DNA of 64,000 bases from the human T2T-CHM13v2.0 reference genome, Homo sapiens, in the NCBI RefSeq assembly GCF_009914755.1, contig NC_060937.1; one strand, 5' to 3'. The notes below the pieces were generated by a model. That model saw only the letters and a list, made by a program, of their open reading frames with translations, searched no databases and had not been told where the DNA came from. Shown one piece after another: positions 20,935 to 51,955 of the stretch (its first letter is position 1; each line of letters begins with the position of its first letter). The translations under genes were made by a program, and so were the position numbers.

Positions 20935-21523
20935 GTCTCTTCCTCCAGCCCCGAGGTTGGGCTCAGCAGGGCCATGCACCTTCCCTTTCCTAGTGCACAG
21001 AGCTTTCCAGTGGTGTCTTCTAGGATCTGAAGTTCCAACACTAAACCAGTGACAAAGCTGATTTCCAAATGGCTTTAATGACAGACAATCTACACACCAA
21101 TCAACTAGTCTGAGCACATGAAGGCTCAGAACAATGAGGACAAATATGCAAAAAGGTCTGAGATGTGATGACAATTGCTTCCCAGTATGCTGACCTTCAG
21201 TAAATGAAACAAAGTATGGTTCTCTTTGGATGAGACATTAATGATCATTAAGAATGGGTACGGCTGCATCGTGCAAGTGCTTTGTTAAAAATATTCTTTT
21301 CATTTTGTGTCTGTCCCGTAATTATAATGGAAGTATTGTGCAAGTCAGCCAGTAAGCATGTGCAGTAAAATATTTGGGTTTTATAACATCAGTGTGGTTT
21401 TTGAAGTTCATTGTCAAGTGGAGTGGCTTTGCCATATCCTTCATGTGTCACCTCTGACTTCAGCCTCACGGTTTAAGATGAACCATGATGTTCATCTTAA
21501 TGATGAATGCTGTGTAATCATGA

Positions 21524-22106
21524 TGTTAAATATGAGTTATAAATTTCTCTTCAAAGAATTAATATGACAGTATGTTCAATTCTTTGCCTTCTACTTTTAA
21601 ACTTAACTTCCTTGTAAAGCAACCTTTTCTGATTATCTACTCCACCCTGACTCATTCTCCACCTTGACTCATTCTGATTACCTACTCCATCCTGACTCAT
21701 TCTCCACCCTGACTCATTCTGATTACTTACTCCACCCTGACTCATTTTCCACCCTGACTCATTCCGATTACCTGCTCCACCCTGACTCATTCTCCACCTT
21801 GACTCATTTCATAACCGTTTTTCCCTCCAAACAACTCACCCTGTCACTCTCTTTAAATTACTCAATCAGAATTAGTTTAGCCTGTACGGTCTAACCCTAG
21901 CCAATAGGGGAATGACAAAGCAGTAGGGACCATGTGCATAAGGAAAAATAACCCCTTTCCCTCCTTTGTCCAGGTGTGCACTCACCAGTCCTCCATCTGT
22001 AAGGGCATACCCTTCTATAGAAGTACCTTGCCCTGCTGAGAATTAAAAAGAAAATTTTATATTCGAGTGCTATTTCTTTTGTGGCACCGAAACTTTACTT
22101 ATAACA
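21524..22106 (+). mobile_element. LTR10F 5' LTR
   Basis: Starts TGTTAAATATGAGTTATAAATTTCTCTTCAAAGAAT and ends TATAACA; CCAAT at 21901, ATTAAA at 22042; contains the AP-1 VNTR. Confidence 0.88.
21628..21808 (+). repeat. LTR10 VNTR: 4 x 45-bp unit with 8 TGACTCA (AP-1) motifs
   Basis: TGACTCA starts at 21648, 21665, 21693, 21710, 21738, 21755, 21783 and 21800 (spacing alternates 17/28). Confidence 0.95.
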
Positions 22107-22109
22107 ATT

Positions 22110-22127
22110 TGGGGGCTCATCCGGGAT
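22110..22127 (+). other. Retroviral primer binding site, tRNA-Pro
   Basis: TGGGGGCTCATCCGGGAT, 17/18 match to the canonical Pro PBS TGGGGGCTCGTCCGGGAT, 3 nt after the LTR end. Confidence 0.88.
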
Positions 22128-22505
22128 TACATTCCCCTCCGGGGGTGGTCTCTGGTTCTCTCTTGTGAGGAGGTGCACCCCACCCCACTGTGGCGGCCTC
22201 AGGGGTGAGAAATCAAGACCCACCCAGTGTGAAGAATAACCTGAGCTCTCAGCTACATGGAAAGAAACTGGCTAGCAACCTAGCTTAAAGCATCCTCCAT
22301 AAGGGCCACACAAGTGTGTGCATGGACCGAGGAAAAGACACCATGGGAGCCGGTAAAGTATTTCCTTGGTGGTTGGGAGCAAGGTAAGAAAGCCGTGGCA
22401 GGGGGTGGTGAAGTACTCCTTGGTCAGGGTGGCTTAGAGGTTAAAAAGAGGTGAGACATCCCCATTGGCAGGGACTGAACCTCACACAAACCTCCAGTAA
22501 TAGAA

Positions 22506-34449: not shown

Positions 34450-34779
34450 AAGGTTCTACAATTACTGATCCTGACACTTAGGATGTGAGTTTAGGTAGAG
34501 ATTTGGGAAGTTCAAGATTGCTCATCATTTTATCTGGTAATGTCTTTTGCTCAAGTGACACCTTTTACTTCAACTGCTATTGTTTGCCTCACTAGTTTCA
34601 CTTGTGGGATTTTTCAAAAATGCATCATGATTGATAGAGTTAAAATTAATCTTTCTTGATGTAAAGCATATTGTGTTCATTGCTGTGGGCCTGCTATGTT
34701 TAGTATTGCAATGCCAGTGGGTTTATATCACCTACCAGTTTATCTTGTTATAACTCATCTGACTGCTTTATCTCTGTGA

Positions 34780-34990
34780 GGTAGCTGTTTAGAGCTTGGG
34801 TTCTGAAGTCAGATGATTTGAGTCTGACTCTTGGCTTTAGTTCCTGAATCCTGGACAAATACCTTCACCTCCCTGGGCCTTCCCTTCCACATCTTCCAGA
34901 TGTGCACATGGTAGTGCTTATCTCATAGGATTTTGTGTATGTGTGAGGATTGAGTCAGACAAATAGGAAGTGTTCAGTATGTTGTCCATT
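34780..34990 (+). mobile_element. MIR SINE
   Basis: TTAGAGCTTGGGTTCTGAAGTCAGA...CCTGGACAAAT...ATCTCATAGGATTTTGTG...GAGGATT. Confidence 0.6.
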
Positions 34991-35399
34991 GTTACATTAA
35001 TCTAAAAAGAACATTGGATAACATTTGAATATCTTCTGTGCCTAAAATGTCTATAGCCTTTCTCTTATTTATTTGTAATTCTCTGCTGTTTGAGTTTCTG
35101 ACAGGCTCTATATTTCTAAGCTTTTATTTAGTCTTGATTAATTTTAGTGAAGTTTTTCTTCAATTTAGTCAAAATAATGTATTTACCATAGGAAGTTAAT
35201 AGTTAAAGATAATTGTTATGTTTGATCTTTACGTAATTAAAACTTGAGAATTTTATCCTTTCAGTTCCTATGTAGGTTAGTTTTTCCTCAATATGGCTAA
35301 TGTGGGTGGTATCTTGGATTGAAATATCTTATTTCCTCAAGTGTACAATCCATTTTAAATAGCAATTTGTGTGGTTGGTAACCATTAACTTGATAGAAA

Positions 35400-36136
35400 C
35401 GTTAGGTCTGAATCTGTCTCTACAAAATTCATGTGTTTGGAACTTAATTTCCAGTGGGGTAGTGTATTAACTCATTTTCATAGTGCTATGAGGAAATACC
35501 CAAGACTGGGTAATTTATAAAGAAAAAGAGGTTTAATGGACTCACAGTTCCACATTGCTGGGGAGGCCTCACAATCATTGTGGAGTGTAAAGGAGGAGCA
35601 AAGGCACATCTTACATGGTGGCAGGCAAGCGAGCGTGTGGAGGGGAACTGCCCTTTATAAAACCAGCAGATCTCATGAGACTTATTCACTATCACGAGAA
35701 CAGCATGGGAAAAACTCAACCCTATGATTGAATTACCTCCCACCAGGTCCCTCCCATGACACGTGGGGATTATGGGAGCTAAAATTCAAGGCGAGATTTG
35801 GGTAGGGACACAGCAAAAACATATCTGGTAGTATTAAGAGGTGGGATCTTTAGGAGGTGATTAAGTCACGAGCATGGAGCTCTTAAGAATGGAATTAGTG
35901 ACCTTACAAAAGATGTGTGAGGGAGCTGTTTGCTGCTTCCACCTCTTCTGCCAGGTGAGGATGCAGCAACAGGAAAACATGTTGGAAGCAGAGAGAAGTC
36001 CTCACCAGACACTGAATCTGCCAAAACCTTGATCTTGAACTTCCCAGCCTCCAGAACTGTTCAAAATAAATTTCTGTTCTTTCTAAATTATCCAGTCTGT
36101 GGCATTCTGTTATAGCAGCAGGAATGGACTAAGACA
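35400..36136 (+). mobile_element. MLT1A0-like LTR interrupted by a THE1
   Basis: 5' part 35400-35462 resumes after 35831 (TATTAAGAGGTGGGATCTTTAGGAGGTGATTA) and ends GGACTAAGACA. Confidence 0.82.
35463..35826 (-). mobile_element. THE1 (THE1C-like) solo LTR nested in MLT1A0
   Basis: Perfect TSD GGTAG (35458-35462, 35827-35831); antisense THE1 termini. Confidence 0.9.
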
Positions 36137-36749
36137 ATTTTATTGAACATCTATCTAAAGAAATGCTACTTCCTTTACTCAAAAATAAAACATGAAGTTT
36201 CTGCGGGTCAGGAAGACCTCTTAGACCAAGTCATTGGTCTGACTATGAGATTCAACTTCCAGGATCCTTTTCTGAGTCTTGCTTCTCTCTCTCTGCTAAA
36301 TTTAAGCGCTCCTGTTCACCATGGAGTCACTATGTTTAAGTAGAGCCCTGCGGCTCTCACACTGCATGTCTGTTTGGATGCTCTTGGGGGCCTTGCAGGA
36401 GTTTTAATGTGGACTGATGTAGGCATGAGGATTCTCAGAGCCCCATGGTATGTTTGCCGTGCAGTGAAACTTGAGGACCACGGCCTACCCAACCTCTGAT
36501 TCTCTGCAGCAACCCCCAGGGTCACGTGGGGACCTGCAAAGTTTGTTCTAAAATTGAGGTGATGAGAGGGGGCTGAGTTCGGAGTGCTACCTCCTTCCAC
36601 ACCAGCTCTACACACTCATCTCCCCTCCACACTCACACTCCTCTGTGCAGTAGTGCAGGCTCCAAGAAATTCCCTTAGAAAGAACTCCTCTTAACTTTGC
36701 TCTATACAGCATTTCCAAACTTAATATCAAATTAGTTCTGTGGTAATAC

Positions 36750-37025
36750 GTGGGCTTATTTTATTAACACATTAAATAAGGATTAGTGGCTATTTCAAAA
36801 CACCTGCAACAGCTTAACATGTGAAATATATGGTTTCTGTTGGTGACAAAGGTACGGGTACCGTGGTTTGTTAGTTGCATTTATAATTAAAGGAAGAGCT
36901 AAATTTCAAATAAAAATTACTGAAAATAAACATGAGATTATTTTTTATCCCAAATTCACAGACCCCCTCCCAACCCCACCTTCCTGCCCCATGCTGCACT
37001 CTCTGTCCATGGGCCCTGGTTAGGG
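36750..37025. mobile_element. hAT-Charlie DNA transposon fragment
   Basis: CATTTATAATTAAAGGAAGAGCTAAATTTCA...TGAAAATAAA...CCAAATTCACAGACCCC resembles a Charlie subterminal region (from memory). Confidence 0.45.
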
Positions 37026-37644
37026 GAAACCCAAGTTGGAACAGGACTCAGGGCTTTTCTTTGACCTGGCTTTTTGCAAACACAAGAAATGCATGGGCTG
37101 GGCATGGCGCTGGTGTGAGAGCTGCACTTTCTGTAGTGACCTGAAGCCTGAATTCACCTCGACCTCCAGTTCCTCCTGCCTGGGAGCTGGTGAATGCCCG
37201 TTGGATCCATTGGAAGGGGTGAATCTCCCTCTTGGCTGTCTCTGTCCAGAGCTGTTCCTCAGGGACTTCCTTGCATTGGGCTCCTGCCAGTCTCAGGGAC
37301 TTCTCAGTCTCTCTGTTGATGGCCCATCAGAGCTCACTCCACTTGTGAAGGCTTTCTCCTGTCATCCTTCCTGGAAGCTCTTTGAATACCGACCACGGCT
37401 GAGCACTGCACTGCCTCCCTGCCCAGCTGCCACTGGGCTTGGATGATTTTCAACCTCAACATGAAAGGGAAACTTTCAGATGGCATCTGGGCTTTGCTAT
37501 TTCTGGTGTGGTGTCATTAAAAGCTGCCTCAGTCTAGCATCTGTGATTTCACTTTTTGATATAAAAAAGATATGAACTGTTAGTGCAATAGTGCAGAGAA
37601 TGATATCCAACTTTTATTTTATGTATATATTTTATTTGTGTCTC

Positions 37645-38137
37645 ATAAAGGGGTTCAGAACACAATAACCCAAAGCATGGCACTTTGACATTTGAGAAAA
37701 CAGCAGAAGCAGGAAGGTCTCTCTCATCTTACTCTGCCCTTCTACCCTAAAGCAGGTCATGAGACCCTCATTCAAGAAGTACACACCCTATACCCAAAGA
37801 AAAGAAACATTCTTATCTCTGAAGACACAGAGACACACAGAGAATAATCTGAACACACCAGTCTTACTAAGCCACCCTATGCCTCCCAGGTTACCACCGT
37901 TCGATCACGCTCCCTTTGTCCAGCCATACTTCCCCGAGACTGTCTACTCTTCATCAAACCTAGCATAAAAAACATGTTTCCCTATTTCTTTGGGTCTTTA
38001 TTTCTGAAGACTCCCATGTCACATACAAATTATATTAAATACACTTGTCTGCTTTCTTCTTCTTAATCTGTCTTATAGGAGCCTCAGGCATAAACTTAGC
38101 AAAGGGTGAGAAAATATGTATCTTTTTATTCCCTACA
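37645..38137 (+). mobile_element. MER39-like ERV1 LTR
   Basis: GGGGTTCAGAACAC...GCAGAAGCAGGAAGGTCTCTCT...AAGCAGGTCATGAGACCCTCATT; ends CCCTACA. Confidence 0.7.
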
Positions 38138-38688
38138 TTTGTATTTATGTTGAAATGCAAAGACAGGCAAAAATAGAGGGCTATACGAATTCAGCAGGAT
38201 TCTAAATTATTAACTTGGAAAGTACTTTCAAACTCTGGAGGAAAGTTTCTAATTACTTTTGGAAGGAAAGGCAGTATTATGTAAGAAAACCACATTTTCT
38301 ATCATGCATTACTAAACTAACTACGGAAGTCACATCCTTATGCCTTTTTGTAGCTAACATTGTTTCTGACCCCTAAGAACTGACTGAAGCAAACAGATCA
38401 AGTTGATTCAGTGTTAGGTAAATAGGAGGGTGGTGAGATTTTAAGATAAACTTACCAGAGCAAGAAAGGATCAGTGCTTCAAACAGGTGCAAAACAAGTA
38501 GGGGAAAGGTAGAATTAAGCACTCTTGTTTTCAAGTTACAAAATGTTCACATTTGTTTCTAATGTTTACTTAAACACTCTAATACCCTAAAAAATCGACA
38601 TCCTTGAATTTGAAGGTCAGTAAAATATAAATAACACAGTTACTGCTTTTTGGAATATCTCTGTGGATTCATTCAGCACTCTTGCTAT

Positions 38689-39014
<326 letters not shown>

Positions 39015-40286
39015 GCTCTTGCTATTTTATTTCTTTTATTGTTTTGCTAAGAATTTTAAAAATTTAAATGTTTACCATATAAAATATCTTACTGCCTTGG
39101 CATTTTTATACCATACATCTCAGAATATTATAATTTGTTAGTTTATCTTGTAAATTATCCCTTGTTATACAGAGAATCTGACCAACTCACCCATTCCCTG
39201 GTCCAGTTGCCATTTTATTTTCTCTAGGAGATTTCTCTTTGGAGAAATATCCTGGTAGCTGCCTGCATGATTGGCAAATTGAAGTTGGAATTTTTTATGG
39301 TCTGTATTAATTGATCTGATTCTTAGAAATTAATTCCCTTCCTAAGAAAAGTACCCTCTTCATTTCTGCTTTTTGCAAGGAGTCATTGGCATTTGTCCAA
39401 CAGTTAATGAGAAATTATTATATAATTACATTTAACTTTTTTCTCAATTCTTTCTGTGTTTGACATAATGTTGAAAAAGAAACTTGAATGGAAAATACAT
39501 CAATAAAATAAAAGCATATTGCAATTATATTCTGACCTTGGCTTTTCCCTCTATATTTCTCACAGGTTAATTATATTCTAAAGCATACCAAGCTCTTCGT
39601 GTTTGCTGCTGGAGTGACTGTGTGTTCCCTTGCCCTTAGATGAAGAAATGCTTTCAAAACCTCTGAAGATGCCTGAATGGTCTGAGGTTCTAATGGTTTA
39701 CATTTTCTTATCGTTCATATGGATAAAAATATGGCTGCATTCCAACTGTCAAGATACATTTGTGTGTTGCCTATAAAACTAGCTCTTCTGTTTAAATGAA
39801 GAGCAGATAAAAAGCATGTATGCAATTAGTCTAATCGGTTCAATGGCAAATTACAGAGCAAAGATTGTGGTAGGATAATCTTTCGGATTATTCATTCTGA
39901 GTTTAAAAATGTTTTGGCTTCTAACAGAAATCCTTTAATTATATGCTAAAGTGGTGATAACCTCATTACAATAGTTTTGCTTATTCCTCAAAGCATTTAT
40001 TAGTTTACTTCTTTAAAATTTGAAAGTGACTATAAAGTTAGGAAGTAAACATTTTTGAAAGGATCAATTAATGATTTAATAATTTGAATTGTTCTCCAAA
40101 GATTAGACATGGCAATTGAAAATAAATGTAGAAATCTCTTCCCTATGGTCATCAAAATTTTGACATGTATTCATATGCCTACTTATAAAGGAGATTGGCA
40201 GCACATAATTGATACCATCTAGCCTTTATTTACAGCAATCAAACATAAGACCTTGACAACATTAACATGCCCTGTGTGCATGTGTG

Positions 40287-40395
40287 CACATACTCATATA
40301 TACACACACTCATATATACACACCCACACATATAACACCCATACACACACATACATATACACACATATACACACAGATACATAAACACACACATA
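40287..40395. repeat. Degenerate (CA/TA)n repeat
   Basis: Read directly. Confidence 0.8.
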
Positions 40396-40519
40396 CTCTT
40401 CACAGTCTTTCTAGGTGAATCCCCCAATCTAAAATGGCCTCCCTCCACACACCCTGTTTGTTTGTATTATCTCTAGCTTGCCTTTGCTTTTTGTCATTGC
40501 CCAGGAGTGCCAAATGCAC

Positions 40520-40682
40520 CCAATTTCATCTTCATTTGTTTATGGGCTTGTCTATCTCCCCACTGGAACAGTGCCCAGGGGGGATAGTGGCTGTTTCTGA
40601 ATTGTTCACTGCTGTATCCTCAGTACCTAGATCAATGCACGGCTCACGATAGGTGCTAAGAATTTGTTCAGTGAATAAGTGA
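40520..40682 (+). mobile_element. L2 3' end
   Basis: TTGTTCACTGCTGTATCCTCAGTACCTAGA...TAGGTGCTAAGAATTTGTTCAGTGAATAA. Confidence 0.7.
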
Positions 40683-40705
40683 CTGTTCCCATTTGGACTT
40701 AAGCT

Positions 40706-41958
40706 TGTGCAGGGAAAAAAACAGACTGCTTTTCCTCTGCTCTCACCCCACAATCAACACAGAAGACTTCTATGGCCAAATGTGTGCATTTTTCCCCCCA
40801 TATACTAAGCAATCAATCTGTTCCACAGCAGATGCCAGCTGGGAGTCCTCCAGCCCAGGCAGTGCTGAGTCTACTGGAGATAGCGTCAGACCCCACGGAA
40901 TGAAGGCTCAGTCCCACAAGACTGCCTCCACTTCCGGTGTCAATCGCAAACCCCAGGTTGTTCACTTGTCTTCTGACTGACCAGCTATAAATCAGGGATC
41001 CCATGGAGCCGCTCATAGAACTCAGGAAATCTCTTATGTTTGCTAGTTTATTACAAAGGACGTTACAAAGACTGCAGATGAAGAGGTGCACAGGACAGGG
41101 CATGGGAGAGGGGTGTGCCACCCTCTAGGCACCTCCACGTGTTCAGCTGTTTAGGAAAATCTCTCAAACCCTGTTCTTCCTCTCCTCTCACACCTCAGCA
41201 GCCATCAATGCAGAAGACTTTTGTGACCTAATGTGGTGGGGTTGGTTTCTTCACATAGCAATCAGTGGACACCAGCTGGGTCCCTCTAATTCAGTTCTAA
41301 CGCTATCTACTTGGAGGTAACCTCAGATCCCACAGGTTGAGGCTTAGTCCCCAAGACAGCCCGCCTCAGACACCAGTGGCAAGTCCAGGCTCTGAAACTT
41401 CTGACTGACTGGCTGGCTATAAATTGGGGATACCAGGACCCTCTTTGGGTTTAATTTGTTGGAGTGGCACACAGAACTCAGGGGAACACCAACTTGTGTT
41501 TACCAGTTTATTGTAAAGGATATTACAAGGATACATCCATCAAGGATACAGATAATGAGATGCGGAGTGAGGTATTGGGGAGGGCACAGAGCTTCCACGC
41601 CCTCCGTGGGTATCACGCTCCAGGACCCTACCCAGGCTCAACCACCCGGAAGCTCTCTGAACCCTGTCCTCTTGAGTTTTTATGGCAGCTTCATTATGTA
41701 GGCATGATTGATTAAACCATTGGCCATTGATGATCAACATAACCTCCAGCTTCTTCCCCTCCCTGGAGATTAGGAGGTGGGACTGAAAGTCCTAGCCCTC
41801 TAATTGTGCCTTTGTCTTTCTGGTGGCCAACCATATCCTGAAGCTATCAGTAAACATCAGCAAACAAAAAGACAGCACTTCGAAGTTTCCAAGGATTTTA
41901 GGAGTTGTATGCCAGGAAAACTGGCGAAGACCAAATATATGTATTTCATAATATCATA
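40706..41958 (-). mobile_element. Two tandem MER21-type LTRs (partial 40706-41147; full 41148-41958)
   Basis: Reverse complement of the right end reads TATGATATTATGAAATACATATATTTGGTCTTCG (MER21 start). CAGAAGACTT, CCAGCTGGG, CTTCTGACTGAC, GCTATAAAT and AGAACTCAGG each occur twice in the same order. Confidence 0.75.
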
Positions 41959-41997
41959 GCTTCCTTCTCTGAATTTCTGTAAGACTTTAGCTTCACA

Positions 41998-43320
41998 TGT
42001 GAAAATAAGTAATTCAAAATCTAAGCTACTGAAACTTTGAAATATTTCAAGCCTTAAGGAAATGTGATTATGGGATCTGAGTCATGCAAACAGGCAGCTG
42101 TAATGTAGGCAGCTGTAATCTTTATTTCTCTGATTATAGATTAGCCTTCTTCCTTACCTACAGTGTTTTGTAAAATGCTGCAAATGACTAAAGAGTGACA
42201 AGAAAGACCCCTTCCCTCTTCACTACTGATCTTTGTTATAGATTAACATCCTTCTTACCTTTCTCACACAAAGACTTTGGCTATCACCTTGCCTAAAATA
42301 AAATGTTAAATATACACTTTTAAATTGGAAACAAAAACTAGCTGTAAAGAAAAGAAAACGTGTCACATGGAGAAAAAAGCAAACTGCACTAATTAAATTT
42401 TTGCAACTAATAAACCAGACTTGCATAGAAAATGTTATAATCCTACTAAACTTCTTTGTTTTCTGCCTAATGAGAAATAAAAAATAAAATCCTAAGCCCC
42501 CCATGTGACTAAACAGACTCCCTCTTAGCCAAGAGGACCCTGAAGAAACCTTAAAAAAAACAGCTCTCAGCCATGACAGTATAGGATGTCAGATGGGCCT
42601 CATGATAGACCCTCCTTTGCTAAATGCCATTAGACTTTCTTTTCCTAAGCTTTAAACAAAAACCAGCCCTCCTGAAAGACTTACTTGACTGCTGATTTCA
42701 ACCAATCACCTGACACTACCCCGGTTTGGTGGACAGCAACTGATCAACATTCCTTCCTGGTAAGAGACCACCAACCATGGAGTGGTTTGGATCAGTTTAA
42801 AGAGACTGCACAATGAGGGCCTTCAGGTCATCTGCTTTACCTTTTGATGTATAGGATCTAATTATAATACATTTAAATGATAAGTCTCCACCCCAAAGTA
42901 AACGTGGGATACATGTTACTTATGTGTTACTCTACTACACATGCCTATGCCTCCCCTTTGTAAAATATTCAGAGCTCCTCTTATAACCTGTAGAATATAT
43001 ATACCTAGCCAATCTGTTCAACATAAGTTCCTGTCTTATCCTTCCCTCCCTTGAAGTGCCTGCTTTCAGCTTCTGAAAGAGGCTATGCTTCCCAGCCTAC
43101 AGGCAGCAACCCTTTATGAGAAATAAAGCTCTCCTTTCCAAATTTATGAACCTCATGATTCTTCAGATGACACTATATATAAAAGCAAAACAACTTTTAA
43201 GTTCAAAGTGCTGACCCTACTTCTCTAGTGTCTTTGTCTTCCAGATGGTCATTCCCAGCTTTTCACCAGAATAAGCTTTTTAAACTGGATTCTGATCATT
43301 TCTATTATTTCAGGCTGACA
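41998..43320 (+). mobile_element. ERV1 (MER4-group) solo LTR split by a second LTR
   Basis: TGTGAAAATAAG...CAGGCTGACA termini with 4-bp TSD CACA (41994-41997, 43321-43324). Confidence 0.75.
42471..43172 (+). mobile_element. Nested ERV1 solo LTR (MER72-like)
   Basis: TGAGAAATAAAAAATAAAATCCTAAGCCCCCC...AATAAAGCTCTCC...CAGATGACA; approximate TSD CTAA/CTAT. Subfamily name uncertain. Confidence 0.7.
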
Positions 43321-43907
43321 CACATAATTCATCACCTCCTTCATCTTACTACAGTCATTCATTCATTTACCATGTCTTCCTGTGAGCTCCCTGAGAGCAG
43401 GTTCTGTGGTAGGTAAATTTGTGTTCCCTCTGGCACTCAACTCAGGAACTTGACATTGAAAGGTGCTTAAACATATTATTGAAGAAATGCATTCATCTAT
43501 TCAAGTCCTGTTTCCTAAGAACATTTCAGTAAAGTCTATTCTGTAAAAATGTTCATCTATGGACATGTATAGATATTTGTTTGATTATAGCTAGGAGCCA
43601 GTATTAGCATTGAAGATTTGTTCTTATAGTGCATGTTCTCATAAAACCAAGTCTGGACACGATCAGTTTCTGTCCTTGGCACAATTGGAGAAAGATCTTT
43701 GCTGCCACAATTTCCTAAATGCCTGTCTTGTTGTCCAAGCATGAAAGGGTTTCCTTTGCCACATCCTCACTTTGCACTTCTCAGAGTCAGGTTCTCTGTG
43801 TCCCTGGTGCTTAAATCATTTTAGGCTAAAGGAAAATGATAATGAAGACACATATTCTCCCTCTCATTCACTGCCTCTCTCTTCTGGTGGTTTCTATCTT
43901 AATGGAT

Positions 43908-44326
43908 TGATATAGTTTGGCTCTGTGTCCCCACTCAAATCTCATGTTGAATTATAATTCCCAATGCTGGGGGAAGGACATAGTGGGGGGTGATTGGATC
44001 ATGGGGGTGAAATTCCCCCCTGCTGTTCTCATGATAGTGAGTGAGTTCACACCAGATCTGATGGTTAAAAGTGTGTGGCACATCCCCATTTGCTGTCTAT
44101 CTCTCTCTCCTGCCACCATGTAAAGAGGTGCATTAGATTAAATGAAATGAAATAATATTTACTAACTACGTCCTCTTCACCTTTTGCCATGATTGTAAGA
44201 TTCCTGCGGCCTCCCAGTCATGCTTCCTGTTAAGCCTGTGGAACTGTAGGTCAATTAAACCTCTTTTCTTCATGAATTATCCAGTCTCAGTAGTTCTCTA
44301 TAGCTGTGTGAGAACAGACTAATACA
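43908..44326 (+). mobile_element. MSTA MaLR solo LTR with a ~40-bp foreign insert
   Basis: TGATATAGTTTGGCTCTGTGTCCCCAC...CAGACTAATACA; perfect TSD TGGAT (43903-43907, 44327-44331). Confidence 0.9.
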
Positions 44327-46252
44327 TGGATCTTAATCCTAGAGATGGACTCTTAAGCATTGTCTTTTTTGGGACAGCACTGGAATAAAAATTTTCAGAT
44401 TTACATGAGCCAAGAGAAGAGAGCAACGCTCTGAATTATCCTTGGGGAAACGGGGGAAGACAAAGTCTGCGGCACCCTGCAACTCACCCCGTAAGCTGTC
44501 GGCCTGCTGTAAAGACATGTAGGGTGTTAATTCCTTATATGACAAAACAAATTTTGATAAATTTGATTAGAATTTTATATCTTGTGCTGTTTTCTAGGAT
44601 GCACATGGGGAAGACGGACATTTTTGTAATTTTAGTAAAGTTCTGTAGGATGATGCACTGTGTAGCTAAAGGTGGTTGTTGTTGTGATCTCATGTTATGG
44701 TTCTAGATTTCCAGGTAGTAATTTAAGTGTAGAGTAACATAATGGTGCCAGCCATTCATTTTATGTTAAGTGTGCTTTTCCCACTCTCATACCACAAAGG
44801 CAATGTTAAATAATTACAGAGAATTGATTATGAGGCCAAGAAAATGAAAGGCTACTTTTGAATGATGCTTTAATACAACTTAAAAGTTAAATGTGAAGGA
44901 AACAGATAGACTTCTAGATTCATTCAGAGCCCAAGGCCCTGTTACTTCTAAAATCACAGAGTTAATAATCTCAACTTGGGGAGACTGATTTGCTGTTAAA
45001 GATCATGCAAAGAGTGAGGCTAGTGAATATTAGTGATTCTAGAAAAGTGATTCTCAAATATTTTATTACGTTGCGGCTAACAAAATTGTTAAGGAGAGAC
45101 CTGAGTAGAGAGACTCCTGAGTGTAACACTTAGTACCCTGAAAGTGTAAGATTTGGACTCCATTTTATGAACATTTTAATCCACGTGATCATTGTTTTGA
45201 TTGAAATGTCTATATAATTGAGCCTGGTCTTAACATTTCCTTAAATATTCACCATTAGAAGTAATCTTCTGTGAAAAAAAAAAAAAGGATCTCTTAGTTG
45301 GCTGATCTTGGCTTGCTCATTTTAATACTAGGAAAATGATGTTAATTTTTTTAAGAAAGACTTAATGGTGCCATGATTAAGGGTGATGGTTACTGGTGCT
45401 TAAAAAAAACTTCCCTCCCCAATTTTATGATATTTGTGCATTTTAGAAATTTTTGGATATCTTTTAAGGAAAGCACTGAGCATGTCACAGATAACCTCTG
45501 TTGATATTTTTACGTAAACCTTTCTTTTTACTGTGCTTACGACATTTTTAATAAAATAAGATCACATTGTGCAAAGTAAATATGGAGTCCTTTGTAATCT
45601 GTATTATTTTAAAACTGAAGTATTAAAGATTATTCCATTCCACTTAATATTATTTTTCTGCATCAGGCATTTGAACATGTGGTCTGTGACCCCACATAAG
45701 GAGGTGATGGCAGTGATGCCACCGCCCATCAGGAAGGCAGCTGCAGCCTCACACCCAACAGCATTGAACCTTAAGGTCATGGCTGGGAATGTAGACCCGT
45801 CCAATGTTCTCAATTTGTTTTCCAGTGAGGGCTCTAGGACGAAATCCTCTTTCATGAGTCATGTGAAAGATGAAACGTGTGGCACTGAGTTTTGCATTCA
45901 AAATAAAAAGAATAGACTATTCTAACATCTGTTACGTTGCTGTTTTGCTTATTCTTGTGGAACTTAAGAACAAAGTGAAAACACCTATTGGTTAGTTGCT
46001 TTCAAATAAAATGTATTCATCGCTAATTTGTCCTTGTGAAAGGGTGCCCATTCCTAATGCAGGTGCACTGGCCGTGTGCACTCCATGGTCCCAGCAGCTC
46101 TCGCTCCCTGGACTCCCGCCGTAGTGAGCGTTTACTAAGGACCTGTTGATCTGGAAAGACAAACCCAACCCAAAGGAGATTAAGGTACAGGGAATAAGTT
46201 TGTGGATCGTTCTTTTCTGAAACAATATTTTACTCCTTTTGCTTCTTTTTAG

Positions 46253-46411
46253 GGTATCGTGCAGCAGTTTTTGGTGTTACTGACGACCAGCTCTGACGAG
46301 AGTCTTCGGTTTCTTAGCTTCAGGCTGGACTTCAACGAGCATTACAAAGCCAGGGAGCCCAGGCTCCGCGTGTCTCTGGGTACCAGGGGGCGGCGCAGCT
46401 CCCACACGTGA
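46253..46411 (+). pseudogene. TUBGCP3: Orphan copy of the last coding exon of TUBGCP3 (gamma-tubulin complex component 3), reading frame intact
   Basis: Polypyrimidine tract plus AG at 46251-46252, then [52 protein letters not shown] (52 aa, TGA 46409-46411). This matches the GCP3 C-terminus as recalled, including the GRIP2-end RLDFN motif. No upstream TUBGCP3 exon was recognised in the window. Confidence 0.85.
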
Positions 46412-47345
46412 AGCTCGCGGTCCTCCCAGGGAGCTGCGGGTGATGTTCGTTGCACTGCTAGACACGAAATTCCCATTGACGTCCTGCAGGAACTGCATGC
46501 TGCAGGTGTCCTGCCCTTCCGCCCACGAGTGCGCCATGTTTCAGCGGAGCGGCGTGTGGGAGAAGCCACGTCGTGTTGCACACGTCGGAGTTGAATGCAT
46601 TTGTAAATCACTAAGTCAAGTAGGCTGGCTGCACTGTTCACATTTGTCTCTAAAAGTCTTCATCCCCAAAAGATACCATAATTTGCTGAGGCTTCTGAAT
46701 CTTAAGTGCTCTAAGTTATAACTTATATTTGTCACTTTAAAAGAACTGTTTGTTTAGCAAAATCTACAGCAAGGGTATATTTATAAAGTGATAATGTCAT
46801 TGCTGTTATTTAGCATCCTCTTCAGAAACTTTTTTTTGCAATATTATTAGATTAAACTGAAATACATAGAAAATATAGAGAGCATTTTATTATCTTGGTA
46901 TTCAAGGTTGTAAAGTGTGAAAATTTTTGTATCTTACATATATCTATTCTTTTCTCTCTCCTTTCAAGGTTTACACTTACAGATTTAATTTACTATTCTA
47001 GATAACTTCTAAAATAGTACAGAACACGAGTAGGAGTGTTGTGGAACAAAAACATCCTTAAACTTAAATTTCTTGACGCCACCAGCTGAAGCAGTGTGGC
47101 AACAGGAATGACTAGAAAGTTAACAAAGTATTTTATTTTTACAATTTTGATGAGCATTATAAAGAAATCGATTTGGATAATGAAGGTTTCTTTTTTCTTT
47201 GACTAATTTTTCCTTGTAAATATTTATATACTATTGACCAGATGCTGGGGAGAACGGTGTCTGTAAAAAGTCACGTCATATCAGCTTGCCTTTATTATGC
47301 TGTATAAGTGAAAACTTAGAAAACTGAAAGCAATTATCTTTCAAA
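46412..47345 (+). other. TUBGCP3-like 3'UTR homolog
   Basis: Follows the stop codon; CpG-rich proximal part, AU-rich distal part with TGTAAATA (47216-47223). Homology to the TUBGCP3 mRNA 3'UTR is from memory. Confidence 0.55.
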
Positions 47346-47939
47346 GCATTGGCTGTTTTTTGAATAGTCTATTAAGTGACAGTTCATTTGCCAGGGGGGC
47401 GGGGATTGACAGGATTTGATTTAATGTAGTACAGCATATGAATTATTTAATCATAATTAGAAACCAAGAAATTAGATTTTGTGTGACTTTCGGTGTAGAA
47501 GCAAACGCAATGTCACCACTCAGGTCTCAGGAGCGGTGCTTTAGTTATCTGAATCTGCCTCTGACTCCTTTAGGTGTGGATTCCCTTTAAAACTAAAGGG
47601 GCCATCAAGAATCCTGGCCATGCAGAAATGATTCCATGGCAAAGGCCAGAAATTCTTAGGATAAAAACTTAATTTAATTTTAGTTTTCAAGTTCATAAAA
47701 TCAGAAATTTGAAACAGATTTCTCCACTGCAAGTTGTCCTAGAAATTATGGCGTATTGTGTATCTCCGAGAGAGGTTTACCAAGGTTATTAACCATGCAG
47801 CCAGCTTTTATTTTATTTTATTCAGAGAGTTGTTCCAGGGATTAATCCTCGGTAGAAACCACCCTAGCAAAGGCCCACCTCGATTTTAGGGATTACGACT
47901 CCATTGGAGTGTAGGAGTCACCAGGACTTAGGTCAGATC

Positions 47940-48890
47940 TGTGGGCTATGGAGGGCTTCCGGGAGGTGCGGCCCTGGGGGGTGCCTGCGGGTCTGGAGGG
48001 TGGGAGCTGGGATGGGGTGAGGCCTCTGAGGAGCTGCGTGAGACCCACTCTCCGTCATTGTGGGTGCACAATCAGGCCCCTTAGGGAGCCAGGGCCCCAA
48101 AACCCAGCATCAGCCAAGCATGGATGACTTGGGGGTTCCACACTGGGGTTGTGCGTAAAGGAGAGCTCCTCTCAGGGGTGGGTGCGCCCGGCCCGGGGGT
48201 GCCACGTCTTCACCCAGAAAACGAGGCCGAGTCTGCAGGGGCCCTGCTGCATGGATGGAGGTGTGGGTGGTTGGTAGGACCCCAGGCCGGTCTCCAGTAG
48301 ACCCAGGGGCAGGAGTGCAGGTGCCCTTCCTTCTGGCTTCCACAGTGGGAGGCAGCAGAGCCCGCCGGCTGGAGATGGGGGCCCCCCGCAGTCCAGCCCC
48401 CTGCACCTGCAGCACAGGCTCTCGGCGAGGAGGACCAGGCCTGGCTGGAGGCTTCCAGGGCTGCGGGGCCACCCCCAACCCGTCTCTTTTCCTGTGCAGG
48501 CCATGCCTGTTTTTAAGGCACCTCCTCCTTCTCCATCGTGGCTTCTGGCCCTACCCTCAACGGCACAGGCCACACACCCGGGCCTGCGAGCCTCCTCCCG
48601 CAGCCGCTTGCTCCGGTCCTGGGGTCTTCTGGCTCTGAGGCCAACCCCGCTCCCCCATCCCTGCTCTGCTCTGAGGTGCCAGCCAGAGCCGCTCAGGGTC
48701 CTCCGTCCGGTTTCCCGTGGGCCTAACAGCAGGGCCCTGGGGCCACTACCCGCACCTCCCTGCCTCCATCTCAGAAACTGAAGCCTGGGAGCCCCCTGGG
48801 CCACCTGAGTCTGGGAGACGCAAGCCAATCCCGGGGACAGGCCCCGGCCCCTTCCTAGTGAGGGGCACGCTCTGGTCAATCGTGGGGCAG
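47940..48890. other. GC-rich unique block in AT-rich surroundings
   Basis: About two-thirds G+C; ~38 CpG in ~950 bp by manual count (O/E ~0.4, below the CpG-island threshold). Confidence 0.6.
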
Positions 48891-49227
48891 AGAAATTTGC
48901 TTTTTAACATAAAACGTATCCTTTGTCCCTAGAATGGCAGGCTACCTCCCTGCCTTATTCTGTGAAGATGTAGTTCTTTTATTAGCAGAGCTTACTTTGA
49001 AGGTAGAATAACAATAAATATATAAGCAGTTGGAGAGTAAAATCACTACAGTATTCAAGTCTAAATATATTACAAATGCCAAGTTTTATTGGAAAATTAT
49101 ATATAAAATTCTTATATACATTTTAGTAAGCCTCCATCTTAGTATCTAAAACTTCATCCACTTTAATTACCAGAAGGCCATGTATTTGACTTTTAGAATC
49201 AGTTACATTTTCTTTTAAAATAAGTTC

Positions 49228-49601
49228 TGCTGTGGTTTGAATGTATTCCCCAAAGTTCACGTGTTGGAAAATTAATCCCCAATGCAACAGTGTTGAGAGG
49301 TGGGGCCTAATAAGAGGTGATTATATCTGAGGGCTCTAATGTCTTTTGGAGTGAGTGAGTTAGTTATTGAGAGGCTGAATTTGTTATAGAAGTGAGTTTG
49401 GCTCCTCTTATGCTCTCTCAAGCACTCTCTTGCCCTTGCAACTTCCACTATGGGATGACACAGCAAGAAGGTTCTCACAAGATGCCAGCACCTTAATCTT
49501 GGACATCCCAGCCTCCAGAACTTTAAGAAATAATTTTCTTTTCTTTATAAATTATCTAGTCTGTGGCATTCTCTTATAACAACACAAAATGGACCAACAC
49601 A
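49228..49601 (+). mobile_element. MSTD-like MaLR solo LTR
   Basis: TGCTGTGGTTTGAATGTATTCCCCAAAG...GGACCAACACA; TSD AGTTC/GGTTC. Confidence 0.85.
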
Positions 49602-49944
49602 GGTTCCCTTTCTTCTCTGTTGTAAAAAGGAAACTTACTATATTAGTAAGAATGTCTTATGACAAAAACATTATTTTTTTCATTTTTTAGATTTTAAAAT
49701 GTATTGTAAATTATAAATAAAAATTGTATATATTTATAGTGTACAACACGATGTATTGAAATATGTGTATATTATGAAATGGCCAATAACATTCTTGATA
49801 ATTCTATATTAATCTTTCCTTCTTGCTATAAATAGAGGTGTAATCTAACTGTGTTAACAATAGCTTATTAAAATCTAGGGAATGTGCTTAAAAGTGAAAG
49901 TAGGAGCTGTGATTTAATCTTTTTTGGGAGTTTCTTTTAGTTAG

Positions 49945-50168
49945 ATTTTTAAATTTTGAGACCATTGTAGAGTCACATGAAGTTATAAGGAAAAATACAG
50001 AGAGATTCCGTGTATTCTTTAACCAGATTTATCCATGACAACATTTTGCCAAACTATAGTACAATATCACAGGACATGGACATCAATAGAGTCAAGACGA
50101 AGGACATTTCCATTACTACCAGGATCTCTCATGGTGGCTTTTGCAGACATACTCACTTCCCTTCCACC
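49945..50168 (-). mobile_element. L1MB/L1MC 3'-end fragment
   Basis: TTGAGACCATTGTAGAGTCACATGAAGTTATAAG...AACTATAGTACAATATCACA, antisense L1M 3' end. Confidence 0.7.
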
Positions 50169-50868
50169 TGTGCGGAGGGGCGGCCATCACCACTGCTGTG
50201 GCTGCCTGCTGTCTAAGATGTCTGAGCTCCTTGGGGGAAGGGCAGCAGCCAACACTGCAGCTGCAGGGCCTCCCTGCAGGAACTCCAACTCTAGCCAAGG
50301 GCTCAGGGACAGAACTCTGATCTCCCTGGGTCTGATTCCCTAGGGGGAGGGGTGGTTGTAGTCGCTGCGAACCAGCAGACTTAGTCTTTCCTTCTGCTAG
50401 CTCTGAGGAATCTGGGCAGCCCAGAAGTGTGGGTTTCCCCCAGCACAGCACACCCCCTCCACCAAGGGACAGCCAAAGTGCCTCATTAAACGAGTACTGT
50501 TTCCTGTGCTACCCAACTTGGTGAGACCCTCTGCCCCCAACAGGGGTTGTCAGACATGCTATATACAAGAGCATTCCTACTGGCATCAGGTCGGTGCCGC
50601 TCGATGTCAGAGATCCCAGAAGAAGGAGCAGGCACCCATCTTTGCTGTTTTCCAGCCTCTTCGAGTGATATCTCAGGTGCAGGAGTAAACCAGATGAATA
50701 GGGCCTGAAGTGAACCCTCAGCAAACTGCAACATCCCTACAGAAACGGGTCCTGACCATTGAAAGAAAAACAAACAAACACAAAACAACAATAGCATCAA
50801 CAAAAAAAGTCCCCACAAAAACCTCATCCAAGGGTCAGCAGCCTTAAAGATTGAAACTAGACAAACTC

Positions 50869-51905
50869 ATGAAGATGAGAAAGAATCAATGAAAAAAATG
50901 CTGAAAACCCAAAAAGCCAGAGTGCCTTGTCTCCTCTAAATGATTGCAACACCTCTGCAGCAAGGGTGCAGAACTGGACGGAGGATGAGATGGCCAAGTT
51001 GACAGAAGTAAGCTTCGGAAGGTGAGTAATAACAAACTTCGCTGAGTAAAGAAGCATGTTCCAACCCAATGCGAAGAAGCTAAGAACCTTGATAAAATGT
51101 TGAAGGAGCCGTTAACTAGAATAACCAGTTTAGAGAGGAACATAAATGACCTGATGGAGATGAAAAACACAGCTTGAGAACTTCATGGAGCACACACAAG
51201 TATCAGTAGCCAAACCAATCAAGAAGAAGAAAGAATATCAGAGATGGAAGACTATATTACTGAAATAAGGCAGGCAGACAAGATTAGAGAAAAAAGAATA
51301 AAAAGGAACAAACAAAACCTCTGAGAAATATGGGACTATGTAAAAAGACCGAACCTATGACTGACTGGAGTACCTGAAAGAGATGAGGAGAATGGAACCA
51401 AGTTGGAAAACACACTTCAGGATACTATCCAGGAGAACTTCCCCAACCTAGCAAGACAGGCCAACATTCAAATTCAGGAAATACAGAAAACCTCACTAAG
51501 ATAACCCCACTAAGATACTCCATGACACACAATCATCAGATTCTCCAAGCTCGAAATGAAGGAAAAAATGTTAAGGGCAGCCATAGAGAAAGGCCAGGTC
51601 ACCTACAAAGGGAAGCCCATTGGACTAACAGTGGATCTTTCAGCAGAAACCCTACAAGCAGAAGAGAGTGGGGGTCAATATTCAGAATTCTTAAAGAAAA
51701 GAATTTTCAACCCAGAATTTCATATCTGGCCAAACTAAGCTTCATAAACAAAGGAGAAAGAAAATCCTTTTCAGACAGGCAAATGCTGAGGAAATTTGCC
51801 ACCACCAGGGCTGCTTTGCAAGAGCTCCTGAAGGAAGCACTAAATATGGAAGGGAAAAACTGGCACCAGCCACTCCAGAACACACAAAAATATAAAGACC
51901 AATGA
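50869..51905 (+). pseudogene. L1 ORF1p remnant
   Basis: Fragments MKEKMLRAAIEKGQVTYKGKPI and KEKNFQPRISYLAKLSF; many stops and frameshifts. Confidence 0.88.
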
Positions 51906-51955
51906 TACTATGAAGAAACGGCATCAACTAGTGTGCAAAATAACCAGCTAGCATC

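What the first reader, a model, noticed from the sequence alone, without database searches (positions are those of the whole stretch)
46201..46411. Orphan but intact TUBGCP3 terminal coding exon
Seen: a strong acceptor (TTTTACTCCTTTTGCTTCTTTTTAG) followed by an open 52-codon phase-0 frame ending in TGA. The ORF track misses it because it has no ATG. Known (from memory): the peptide is the C-terminus of GCP3, a core gamma-TuRC subunit. Seen: the intron-side acceptor is kept, so this is not a processed retrocopy, yet no preceding TUBGCP3 exon (e.g. ...MCSQLRILTHFYQ) is recognisable in 46 kb upstream. Inference: a DNA-level duplicate of only the gene's 3' end that has not decayed.
Basis: partly seen in the sequence, partly recalled or inferred. 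Interest (0 to 1): 0.8.

Follow-up and report, generated by a model that had tools for sequence, protein, structure and literature searches.

The report
TUBGCP3 exon copy inside lncRNA LINC00431
The intact last coding exon of the microtubule gene TUBGCP3 seen here is the final exon of the lncRNA LINC00431, part of an old, mostly decayed partial copy of TUBGCP3, and it looks pristine because a short stretch was recently overwritten from the real gene.

Summary
Window 46253-46411 is 52 codons plus TGA behind a strong acceptor, and all 52 residues match human GCP3 856-907.

The exon is not orphan. It is exon 2 of LINC00431 in the hub annotation.

The genome holds two copies: this one, and the true TUBGCP3 last exon 1.51 Mb away on the opposite strand.

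Collinear inverted blocks at window 34450-40268 derive from one TUBGCP3 intron, and 45705-48162 derives from the gene's 3' end. About 44.5 kb of the parent, with all intervening exons, is missing.

The copy has decayed. Identity is 79.6% in the intron blocks and 84% in the 3' block. A 369-bp tract (46209-46577) has no differences, and 0 of 20000 shuffles reached that run. This points to recent gene conversion, not selection.

A 2020 proteogenomics paper listed a 53-aa "conserved" sORF here, Met plus these 52 residues, on one spectrum match, without mentioning TUBGCP3.

348 of 603 21-mers of exon 2 also occur in TUBGCP3, so LINC00431 reagents and RNA-seq counts can cross-react.

This is an ordinary kind of feature with a useful twist.

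The parts
34450..40268 (+). Upstream part of the duplicate. Seven collinear, inverted, unique-copy blocks (34450-35302, 36262-36405, 36395-36679, 36664-37635, 38156-38634, 39060-39860, 40062-40268) match C13:111786787 down to 111778228. That parent stretch lies in an interval with no Pfam-detected exon, read as a single TUBGCP3 intron.
   Evidence: blastn of the window against 130 kb. (genome-wide: only self plus the TUBGCP3 locus as long matches). (flanking GRIP1 exons at 111793366-536 and 111774481-594 cover adjoining profile positions). (K2P 0.14-0.47, pooled 0.242; 79.6% identity over 3651 sites).
39618..39679 (+). Inferred alternative first exon of the LNCipedia isoform lnc-ARHGEF7-7:3. 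It ends in ATG (39677-39679) followed by a GT donor, with an in-frame TGA directly upstream. Spliced to 46253 it gives Met plus the 52 residues.
   Evidence: the paper's supplement gives hg38 coordinates and a 53-aa sORF. (sequence and in-silico splice). (the parent reads ATT|GC where the copy reads ATG|GT). The exon limits are inferred from an assumed constant hg38-to-CHM13 offset and are not annotated in the hub table.
40269..45704 (.). 5.4 kb that replaces 44.5 kb of the parent (C13:111733778-111778227, which holds the remaining GRIP1 exon, all GRIP2 exons and the penultimate exon). It contains interspersed repeats at about 41148-44326.
45705..46252 (+). Retained tail of the TUBGCP3 last intron: 548 nt here against 519 nt of the parent's 3437-nt intron. 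It includes the acceptor and polypyrimidine tract at 46228-46252.
   Evidence: 88.4% identity; parent penultimate exon and donor.
46253..46411 (+). Copy of the TUBGCP3 terminal coding segment: 52 codons plus TGA. It forms the first 159 nt of LINC00431 exon 2.
   Evidence: 159 of 159 nt identical to the parent; hub annotation.
46209..46577 (+). 369-bp tract with no differences from the parent: 44 nt intron, 159 nt coding and 166 nt 3'UTR. It has 24 CpG and 55.8% GC. Read as a recent gene-conversion tract.
46412..46875 (+). Sequence derived from the TUBGCP3 3'UTR, forming the rest of LINC00431 exon 2. The only poly(A) hexamer in 46412-48200 is ATTAAA at 46851-46856. It aligns with an ATTAAA in the parent and sits 19 nt before the annotated transcript end.
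   Evidence: (88.6% identity), hub annotation.
46876..48162 (+). Rest of the duplicated 3' flank. An AT-rich, strongly diverged part (46701-47470, K2P 0.271) is followed by a second high-identity GC-rich block (47771-48120, K2P 0.029). Homology fades at about 48162-48230, with no poly(A) run there.
22291..22383 (+). LINC00431 exon 1 of RefSeq NR_126378.1, which splices to 46253. It has no AUG in the GCP3 frame, and a stop lies 9 codons before the junction.
   Evidence: Hub annotation.

Best explanation
The exon is the terminal exon of the lncRNA LINC00431. It was inherited from an old, inverted, intrachromosomal, DNA-level partial duplicate of TUBGCP3 that has lost every other coding exon. The lncRNA reuses the parent's last-exon acceptor and a parental ATTAAA poly(A) signal. 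The duplicate as a whole has diverged to about 76-87% identity in most blocks. The coding frame is intact because a stretch of at least 369 bp spanning the intron-exon boundary, the coding part and the proximal 3'UTR was recently overwritten by interlocus gene conversion. The donor was most likely the functional TUBGCP3 copy 1.51 Mb away. Shown here: two copies only, the extent and orientation of the copy, loss of the exons, the mosaic of identity, and the statistical excess of the identical tract. Inferred: the conversion mechanism and its direction, the timing (roughly the last 4-8 Myr for the tract and tens of Myr for the duplication, using recalled mutation rates), and that the intact frame is a by-product and not selected.
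For: There are two genomic places only, self and C13:111731312-111733777 on the minus strand. The second is the real gene: 7 GCP_C_terminal and 4 GCP_N_terminal exon matches lie upstream of it on the same strand, and the penultimate exon with its GT donor lies 3.4 kb upstream. In the 3' block, 2531 aligned columns hold 411 discordant ones, yet one run of 369 is identical. 0 of 20000 column shuffles reached 369 (maximum 91). Restricted to the best-conserved neighbourhood 45794-46700 (911 columns, 64 discordant), it was again 0 of 20000 (maximum 181). The tract includes 44 intron bases, all synonymous sites, 166 UTR bases and 24 CpGs, so protein-level selection cannot explain it. K2P in the flanks is 0.104, 0.053, 0.271, 0.106 and 0.029. 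Upstream intron blocks pool to 0.242. High-identity segments coincide with GC-rich segments. There is no poly(A) at the end of homology. RefSeq's isoform has no AUG in the GCP3 frame.
Against: No outgroup genome was available. So similarity between paralogues exceeding that between orthologues, the direct test of conversion, was not tested, and the direction of conversion is only argued from constraint on the essential parent. Divergence among blocks is heterogeneous (K2P 0.14-0.47), so the baseline and the ages are rough. One published spectrum match (probability 0.905) to a peptide that begins with the copy-specific Met would, if real, mean the frame is translated. That leaves room for some selection on top of conversion.
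Confidence: 0.8

Rival explanations
1. The frame is kept intact by purifying selection because a 53-aa micropeptide (Met plus the GCP3 C-terminal 52 residues) is made from a LINC00431 isoform and has a function, for example at gamma-tubulin complexes.
For: PMC7418880 (passages and one supplement row seen) lists isoform lnc-ARHGEF7-7:3 with a 53-aa sORF. It reports one spectrum match in hepatocellular carcinoma to a peptide starting with the extra Met, and shows 'focal conservation' of the sORF. An ATG|GT site at 39677-39681 with an in-frame stop just upstream reproduces that sORF. It is specific to the copy, since the parent reads ATT|GC.
Against: Selection on a peptide does not keep intron, synonymous, CpG and UTR positions identical. 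There is only one match, at probability 0.905, in one cohort, from a semi-tryptic search at 20 ppm, and 19 of its 20 residues are shared with GCP3. The AUG is the fourth in the inferred transcript and has T at -3. The curated RefSeq isoform has no AUG in this frame. CPAT called the RNA noncoding in PMC12466122. The fragment covers only 33 of 309 positions of the GCP_C_terminal profile and scores below its cut-off. A single-sequence fold was not informative.
Confidence: 0.08
2. The identity is kept for an RNA-level role. LINC00431 carries the same proximal 3'UTR as TUBGCP3 and acts as a decoy or competitor for factors that bind the TUBGCP3 mRNA 3' end.
For: 166 nt of 3'UTR are identical and a further 123 nt are about 95% identical. 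348 of 603 21-mers of exon 2 occur in the TUBGCP3 sense strand. Functional phenotypes are reported for LINC00431 in PMC12466122 (abstract and passages seen).
Against: No factor or site has been identified, and there were no Rfam matches in 45500-48400 (0 at E<=0.1). Selection of this kind does not predict zero differences at 24 CpGs and in intron sequence. PMC10231995 reports LINC00431 as mainly nuclear, and its knockdown as not significantly different from the scrambled control in the colony assay.
Confidence: 0.07
3. It is a 5'-truncated retrocopy of an intron-retaining TUBGCP3 transcript.
For: The 3' block starts inside the last intron and runs through the last exon, as 5' truncation of an unspliced RNA would give.
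Against: There is no A-run where homology ends. Collinear blocks from a different intron 45-55 kb upstream in the parent lie 5.4 kb upstream in the same orientation, which a retrocopy of the 3' end cannot explain.
Confidence: 0.01
4. It is the true TUBGCP3 terminal exon reached by a very long intron, or a misassembly.
For: None was found beyond the perfect identity of the tract.
Against: A second, complete locus carries the penultimate exon 3.4 kb upstream of its own last exon. The window copy is on the opposite strand 1.51 Mb away. The identical patch is 369 bp inside diverged flanks, not a long block of the kind a collapse would produce.
Confidence: 0.01

Closest known systems
Unprocessed (duplicated) partial pseudogene taken up as a lncRNA exon
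   Same: Intron, exon and flank are copied at the DNA level. Most exons are lost. The parental splice acceptor and poly(A) hexamer are reused by a noncoding transcript (hub annotation).
   Different: At 84% identity over about 2.5 kb it falls below the usual segmental-duplication threshold (1 kb or more at 90% or more; recalled). No pseudogene symbol was found in print (0 papers for 'TUBGCP3P'). One exon is still letter-perfect.
Interlocus (ectopic) gene conversion between a gene and its pseudogene; recalled examples are CYP21A2/CYP21A1P and GBA1/GBAP1
   Same: A short tract of complete identity sits inside diverged paralogous sequence on the same chromosome.
   Different: Here the acceptor appears to be the pseudogene-like copy, so no disease allele is implied. 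The partners are 1.5 Mb apart, inverted, and otherwise diverged to about 76-87% identity. No outgroup test was possible.
lncRNA-encoded micropeptides reported by proteogenomics (PMC7418880)
   Same: This very sORF is listed there with one spectrum match and 'focal conservation'.
   Different: The sORF is a copy of a known protein's C-terminus, not an independent conserved small gene. The paper's main text has 0 occurrences of TUBGCP3.
GCP3 / GCP_C_terminal (GRIP2) domain, PF04130
   Same: The 52 residues are identical to the end of human GCP3 and align to profile positions 277-309 of 309.
   Different: Only the last tenth of the domain is present, at 16.9 bits against a cut-off of 25.8. It is a fragment, not a GCP family protein.

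Membership tests
Processed pseudogene / retrocopy | Absence of intron sequence | tested here: not met
   548 nt of the last intron is retained upstream of the exon. 5.8 kb of sequence derived from another intron lies upstream.
Processed pseudogene / retrocopy | Poly(A) tract at the 3' end of homology | tested here: not met
   No A-run at 48100-48230, where homology fades.
Unprocessed partial gene duplicate | A second genomic locus with homology across intron, exon and flank | tested here: met
   2 places; 2531 columns at 84.4%; 8 collinear unique blocks among the 9 unique blocks.
Unprocessed partial gene duplicate | The parent locus is the complete gene | tested here: met
   7 PF04130 and 4 PF17681 exon matches lie on the minus strand of C13:111733166-111795837. 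The penultimate exon and its donor were found.
Segmental duplication (conventional definition, recalled: 1 kb or more at 90% identity or more) | At least 90% identity over at least 1 kb | tested here: not met
   84.4% over 2531 columns. Upstream blocks are 65-87% identical.
Interlocus gene conversion tract | A run of identity significantly longer than the surrounding divergence allows | tested here: met
   A 369-bp run. 0 of 20000 shuffles reached it, both for the whole 3' block and for the local region.
Interlocus gene conversion tract | Paralogues more alike than orthologues within the tract (phylogenetic incongruence) | not testable with these tools
   No primate or other mammalian genome is held. 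Only the window's own assembly could be searched.
Interlocus gene conversion tract | GC-rich or GC-biased tract | tested here: inconclusive
   The tract is 55.8% GC. High-identity blocks coincide with GC of 50-65% and the most diverged part with 26-33%. That is a correlation only.
GCP_C_terminal domain protein (PF04130) | Score above the Pfam gathering cut-off | tested here: not met
   16.9 bits against 25.8, covering profile positions 277-309 of 309.
lncRNA-encoded micropeptide | AUG-initiated ORF in an annotated transcript | tested here: inconclusive
   RefSeq NR_126378.1 has no AUG in frame. The LNCipedia isoform in PMC7418880 has a 53-aa sORF, which an inferred exon ending at 39679 reproduces. 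The exon limits were not verified.
lncRNA-encoded micropeptide | Direct evidence of translation | not testable with these tools
   There is one published spectrum match at probability 0.905. No ribosome-profiling or raw MS data could be examined.

The most novel reading that the evidence does not exclude
A small ORF was born from scrap. Two substitutions in a duplicated TUBGCP3 intron (ATT|GC to ATG|GT, window 39677-39681) created a start codon that is also a splice donor. It splices in phase onto a TUBGCP3 terminal exon that gene conversion keeps identical to the parent. The resulting 53-aa peptide, Met plus the GCP3 tail, is really made, as one hepatocellular-carcinoma spectrum suggests, and interferes with or mimics the C-terminal end of GCP3 in gamma-tubulin complexes. 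Conversion, not selection, would then be what keeps a young micropeptide gene 'conserved'.
Probability: 0.08. Interest if true: 0.65.

Novelty: new member of a known kind. Interest (0 to 1): 0.4.

Why it matters
There are three practical consequences.

1. A published example of a lncRNA sORF judged coding-like by PhastCons and PhyloCSF (PMC7418880, Fig. 4B legend and supplement row) is a copy of a known gene's last coding exon. Its 'focal conservation' is most simply inherited from TUBGCP3. Screens for conserved sORFs need a paralogue and gene-conversion filter.

2. Exon 2 makes up 623 of the 716 nt of NR_126378.1. 58% of its 21-mers and 43% of its 100-mers are identical to TUBGCP3 mRNA. So shRNAs, gapmers, qPCR amplicons, FISH probes and RNA-seq reads for LINC00431 can hit or be confused with TUBGCP3, which encodes a core gamma-tubulin ring complex subunit. 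This bears on the functional claims in PMC12466122 and PMC10231995, whose reagent sequences I could not see.

3. It is a clean small example of conversion between partners 1.5 Mb apart, inverted, and otherwise diverged to about 76-87% identity.

No paper in the searchable library holds both 'TUBGCP3' and 'LINC00431' (0 papers).

Tried and rejected
- **Retrocopy:** rejected. Intron sequence is retained and there is no poly(A).
- **Real gene with a long last intron, or misassembly:** rejected.
- **Further duplicated sequence beyond 48162 and in 40800-45750:** genome-wide searches returned self plus interspersed repeats only. Only 40 of 22052 and 40 of 12743 candidates were scored, so I repeated the test locally against 130 kb of the parent locus. 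That search uncovered the upstream intron blocks but nothing in 40269-45704.
- **Known RNA families in 45500-48400:** 0 matches at E<=0.1.
- **Fold of the 52 residues alone:** the model had mean pLDDT 76 and all beta strands, from a single sequence. I judged it uninformative and did not use it for a fold search.
- **Literature on gene conversion:** 'TUBGCP3' with 'gene conversion' gave 2 papers. The one I opened (PMC2720389, one passage) names TUBGCP3 only as a binding partner of TUBG1/2.
- **Literature on other names:** 'TUBGCP3P' gave 0 papers. 'lnc-ARHGEF7-7' gave only PMC7418880.
- **Reagent sequences:** the supplement of PMC12466122 names shRNAs and a primer table, but the passages shown carried no sequences.
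- **Not used:** the large protein-database searches and complex prediction, because they could not decide between conversion and selection.
Full report
**1. The observation**

The sequence at 46228-46252 is a long polypyrimidine tract ending in AG. From 46253 a frame of 52 sense codons runs to a TGA at 46409-46411 and contains no Met. A search of the sequences of all solved structures returned three distinct chains, all gamma-tubulin complex component 3. The human chain (6v6b_B, 907 aa) matches 52 of 52 residues at its last positions, 856-907 (E 4.5e-28). A 910-aa GCP3 differs at 3 of 52 residues and the 906-aa 'GCP3 homolog' at 3 of 51. Against Pfam the fragment covers only positions 277-309 of the 309-position GCP_C_terminal profile and scores 16.9 bits, below the 25.8-bit cut-off.

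**2. Where the real gene is**

A search of the window's own assembly with window 45000-47500 found two places only. One is the window itself. The other is C13:111731959-111733777 on the opposite strand at 82% identity.

That second place is the true TUBGCP3 3' end:
- A six-frame search with PF04130 gave 25 matches genome-wide. Seven lie on the minus strand of C13:111733166-111769512, and one lies in the window (window 46217-46345).
- PF17681 gave 15 matches. Four lie at C13:111774481-111795837 and none in the window.
It lies at about C13:111736696, which gives a last intron of 3437 nt. The motif occurs 0 times in the six frames of the window.

The two terminal exons are 1.51 Mb apart and inverted.

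**3. Extent of the copy**

Local blastn against the parent aligns window 45705-48162 to the parent over 2531 columns at 84.4% identity. On both sides identity drops to about 45%. No A-run lies where homology fades.

Genome-wide searches with the flanks (40800-45750 and 48100-53000) returned only self and interspersed repeats. Only 40 of many thousand candidates were scored there. I therefore fetched 130 kb around TUBGCP3 and compared the whole window with it.

Of 258 HSPs, nine were unique on both sides. Eight form one collinear, inverted chain:

| Window | Parent (C13) |
|---|---|
| 34450-35302 | seven blocks running from 111786787 down to 111778228 |
| 36262-36405 | (same run) |
| 36395-36679 | (same run) |
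| 36664-37635 | (same run) |
| 38156-38634 | (same run) |
| 39060-39860 | (same run) |
| 40062-40268 | (same run) |
| 45705-48162 | 111733777-111731312 |

Two of the upstream blocks were checked genome-wide. Window 39040-39900 has 2 places in all. Window 36380-37660 has self, two pieces at the TUBGCP3 locus, and 18 weak matches of under 200 bases.

The parent interval 111778228-111786787 lies between GRIP1 exons that cover adjoining profile positions (135-191 and 191-236). So it is read as part of a single intron of about 18.8 kb.

The copy is therefore a DNA-level partial duplicate of at least 13.7 kb (window 34450-48162). About 44.5 kb of the parent, with every coding exon between that intron and the last one, is missing and is replaced by 5.4 kb of other, partly repetitive sequence.

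**4. Decay and the pristine patch**

The upstream intron blocks are 65-87% identical. Pooled, they are 79.6% identical over 3651 sites, K2P 0.242.

K2P distances within the 3' block:

| Window segment | K2P |
|---|---|
| 45794-46208 | 0.104 |
| 46209-46577 | 0 |
| 46578-46700 | 0.053 |
| 46701-47470 | 0.271 |
| 47471-47770 | 0.106 |
| 47771-48120 | 0.029 |

The zero-difference run is 369 bp: 44 nt of intron, 159 nt of coding sequence with the stop, and 166 nt of 3'UTR. It holds 24 CpGs.

Shuffling the 2531 alignment columns (411 discordant) 20000 times gave a longest run of 91 at most. Shuffling only the well-conserved neighbourhood 45794-46700 (911 columns, 64 discordant) gave 181 at most. 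No shuffle reached 369 in either test.

Purifying selection on a peptide cannot remove differences at intron, synonymous, CpG and UTR positions. Suppose constraint froze the parent completely: half of the lowest flank distances would still predict roughly 18 or more differences in the copy (my arithmetic).

The best reading is a recent interlocus gene conversion. The other moderately similar and GC-rich blocks are compatible with earlier conversions, but block-to-block heterogeneity makes that tentative.

Using recalled human mutation rates (about 0.4-0.5e-9 per site per year, about tenfold higher at CpG), zero differences bound the event to roughly the last 4-8 Myr. K of about 0.24 puts the duplication at tens of Myr. 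Both figures are inference.

The direction, TUBGCP3 into the copy, is argued only from constraint on the parent and its conserved protein sequence.

**5. What the exon does now**

By the hub's RefSeq table, 46253-46875 is exon 2 of LINC00431 (NR_126378.1), spliced from 22291-22383. So the parental acceptor is in use. The only poly(A) hexamer between 46412 and 48200 is ATTAAA at 46851. It aligns with an ATTAAA in the parent and sits 19 nt before the annotated end. In that isoform no AUG is in the GCP3 frame, and a stop lies nine codons before the junction.

**6. The published sORF**

PMC7418880 (passages of the main text and one supplement row seen) presents LINC00431 (lnc-ARHGEF7-7) as a peptide-encoding lncRNA with high focal conservation of its sORF. 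Its supplement lists isoform lnc-ARHGEF7-7:3 in hepatocellular carcinoma with:
- a 53-aa sORF that is Met plus the 52 residues;
- one spectrum match, probability 0.905, to the N-terminal peptide carrying an oxidised Met.

The search was semi-tryptic at 20 ppm and included UniProt. The main text has 0 occurrences of TUBGCP3.

I assumed a constant offset between hg38 and this assembly, anchored on the exon 2 end. On that assumption the isoform starts near window 39618. There an ATG at 39677-39679 is followed directly by GT and preceded by an in-frame TGA. Joining 39618-39679 to exon 2 in silico reproduces a 53-aa ORF as the fourth AUG of the transcript, in the context gcctgaATGG. Ten ATG|GT sites exist in 39618-46252, two of them here (39677 and 39693), so the exon limits remain inferred.

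This site lies inside duplicated intron block 39060-39860. The parent reads ATT|GC where the copy reads ATG|GT, so the start codon and donor are specific to the copy.

I rate real, functional translation as unlikely (about 0.08) but not excluded. The paper's 'focal conservation' is most simply a property inherited from the TUBGCP3 exon.

**7. Practical consequence**

Of the k-mers of exon 2, 348 of 603 21-mers, 281 of 574 50-mers and 226 of 524 100-mers occur identically in the sense strand of the TUBGCP3 3' end. Exon 2 is 623 of the 716 nt of the RefSeq transcript.

Two functional studies are affected:
- PMC12466122 (abstract, passages and supplement passages seen) used shRNAs, qPCR and FISH, and called the RNA noncoding by CPAT.
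- PMC10231995 (passages seen) used LNA gapmers and qPCR.

Neither main text mentions TUBGCP3. I could not see their reagent sequences: one search showed none, and one search was closed. Whether they cross-react is open.

**8. Novelty**

The kind of feature is well known: an unprocessed partial pseudogene taken up by a lncRNA, with a gene-conversion tract. The particular link was not found in the searchable library:
- 0 papers hold both 'TUBGCP3' and 'LINC00431'.
- 0 papers hold 'TUBGCP3P'.
- 17 papers mention LINC00431, of which 13 were listed and 4 opened in part.

Subscription-only papers and database annotation such as GENCODE pseudogene tracks were not searchable, so prior description there cannot be excluded.

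**Verdict.** This is a real feature, correctly seen and partly misread. It is ordinary in kind, with a specific and useful explanation.

Noticed in passing
window 50167-53000 (and on towards about 55700 by the hub's repeat mask): A long interspersed repeat. Dozens of genomic copies at 81-87% identity cover up to 2.8 kb of the query. It looks like an L1-type element, but the family was not determined.
   Followed up: no
window 41148-44326: Several older interspersed repeats (many genomic copies at 70-81% identity) fill much of the 5.4 kb that replaces the missing 44.5 kb of the parent. They may be insertions after the deletion or part of the junction filler.
   Followed up: no
window 38679-39037: An Alu-sized repeat, with about 300-bp matches to many places in the TUBGCP3 region. 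It sits between duplicated blocks 38156-38634 and 39060-39860, where the parent has only a 46-bp gap. It therefore looks like an insertion into the copy after the duplication.
   Followed up: partly
window 47771-48120: A second GC-rich block, 54-65% GC, at 97% identity to the parent (10 differences in 350 sites, 9 of them transitions). It lies well downstream of the LINC00431 end. It may be an older conversion tract or a constrained element, and it has no Rfam match.
   Followed up: partly
window 48200-48800: A 66-70% GC stretch begins where homology to TUBGCP3 fades. It could be a CpG-island-like element at the duplication boundary.
   Followed up: no
window 53561-53872: A weak (66%) unique match to the same TUBGCP3 intron (C13:111784379-111784676) in the same inverted orientation but out of order with the chain. 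It could be a displaced fragment of the duplicate or an old repeat.
   Followed up: no
window about 22291 (LINC00431 transcription start, inside the RefSeq enhancer 21243-22442): A bioRxiv preprint (10.1101/2020.09.09.288324, one passage seen) lists LINC00431 among the genes with the strongest ZNF473 ChIP peaks near their start sites.
   Followed up: no
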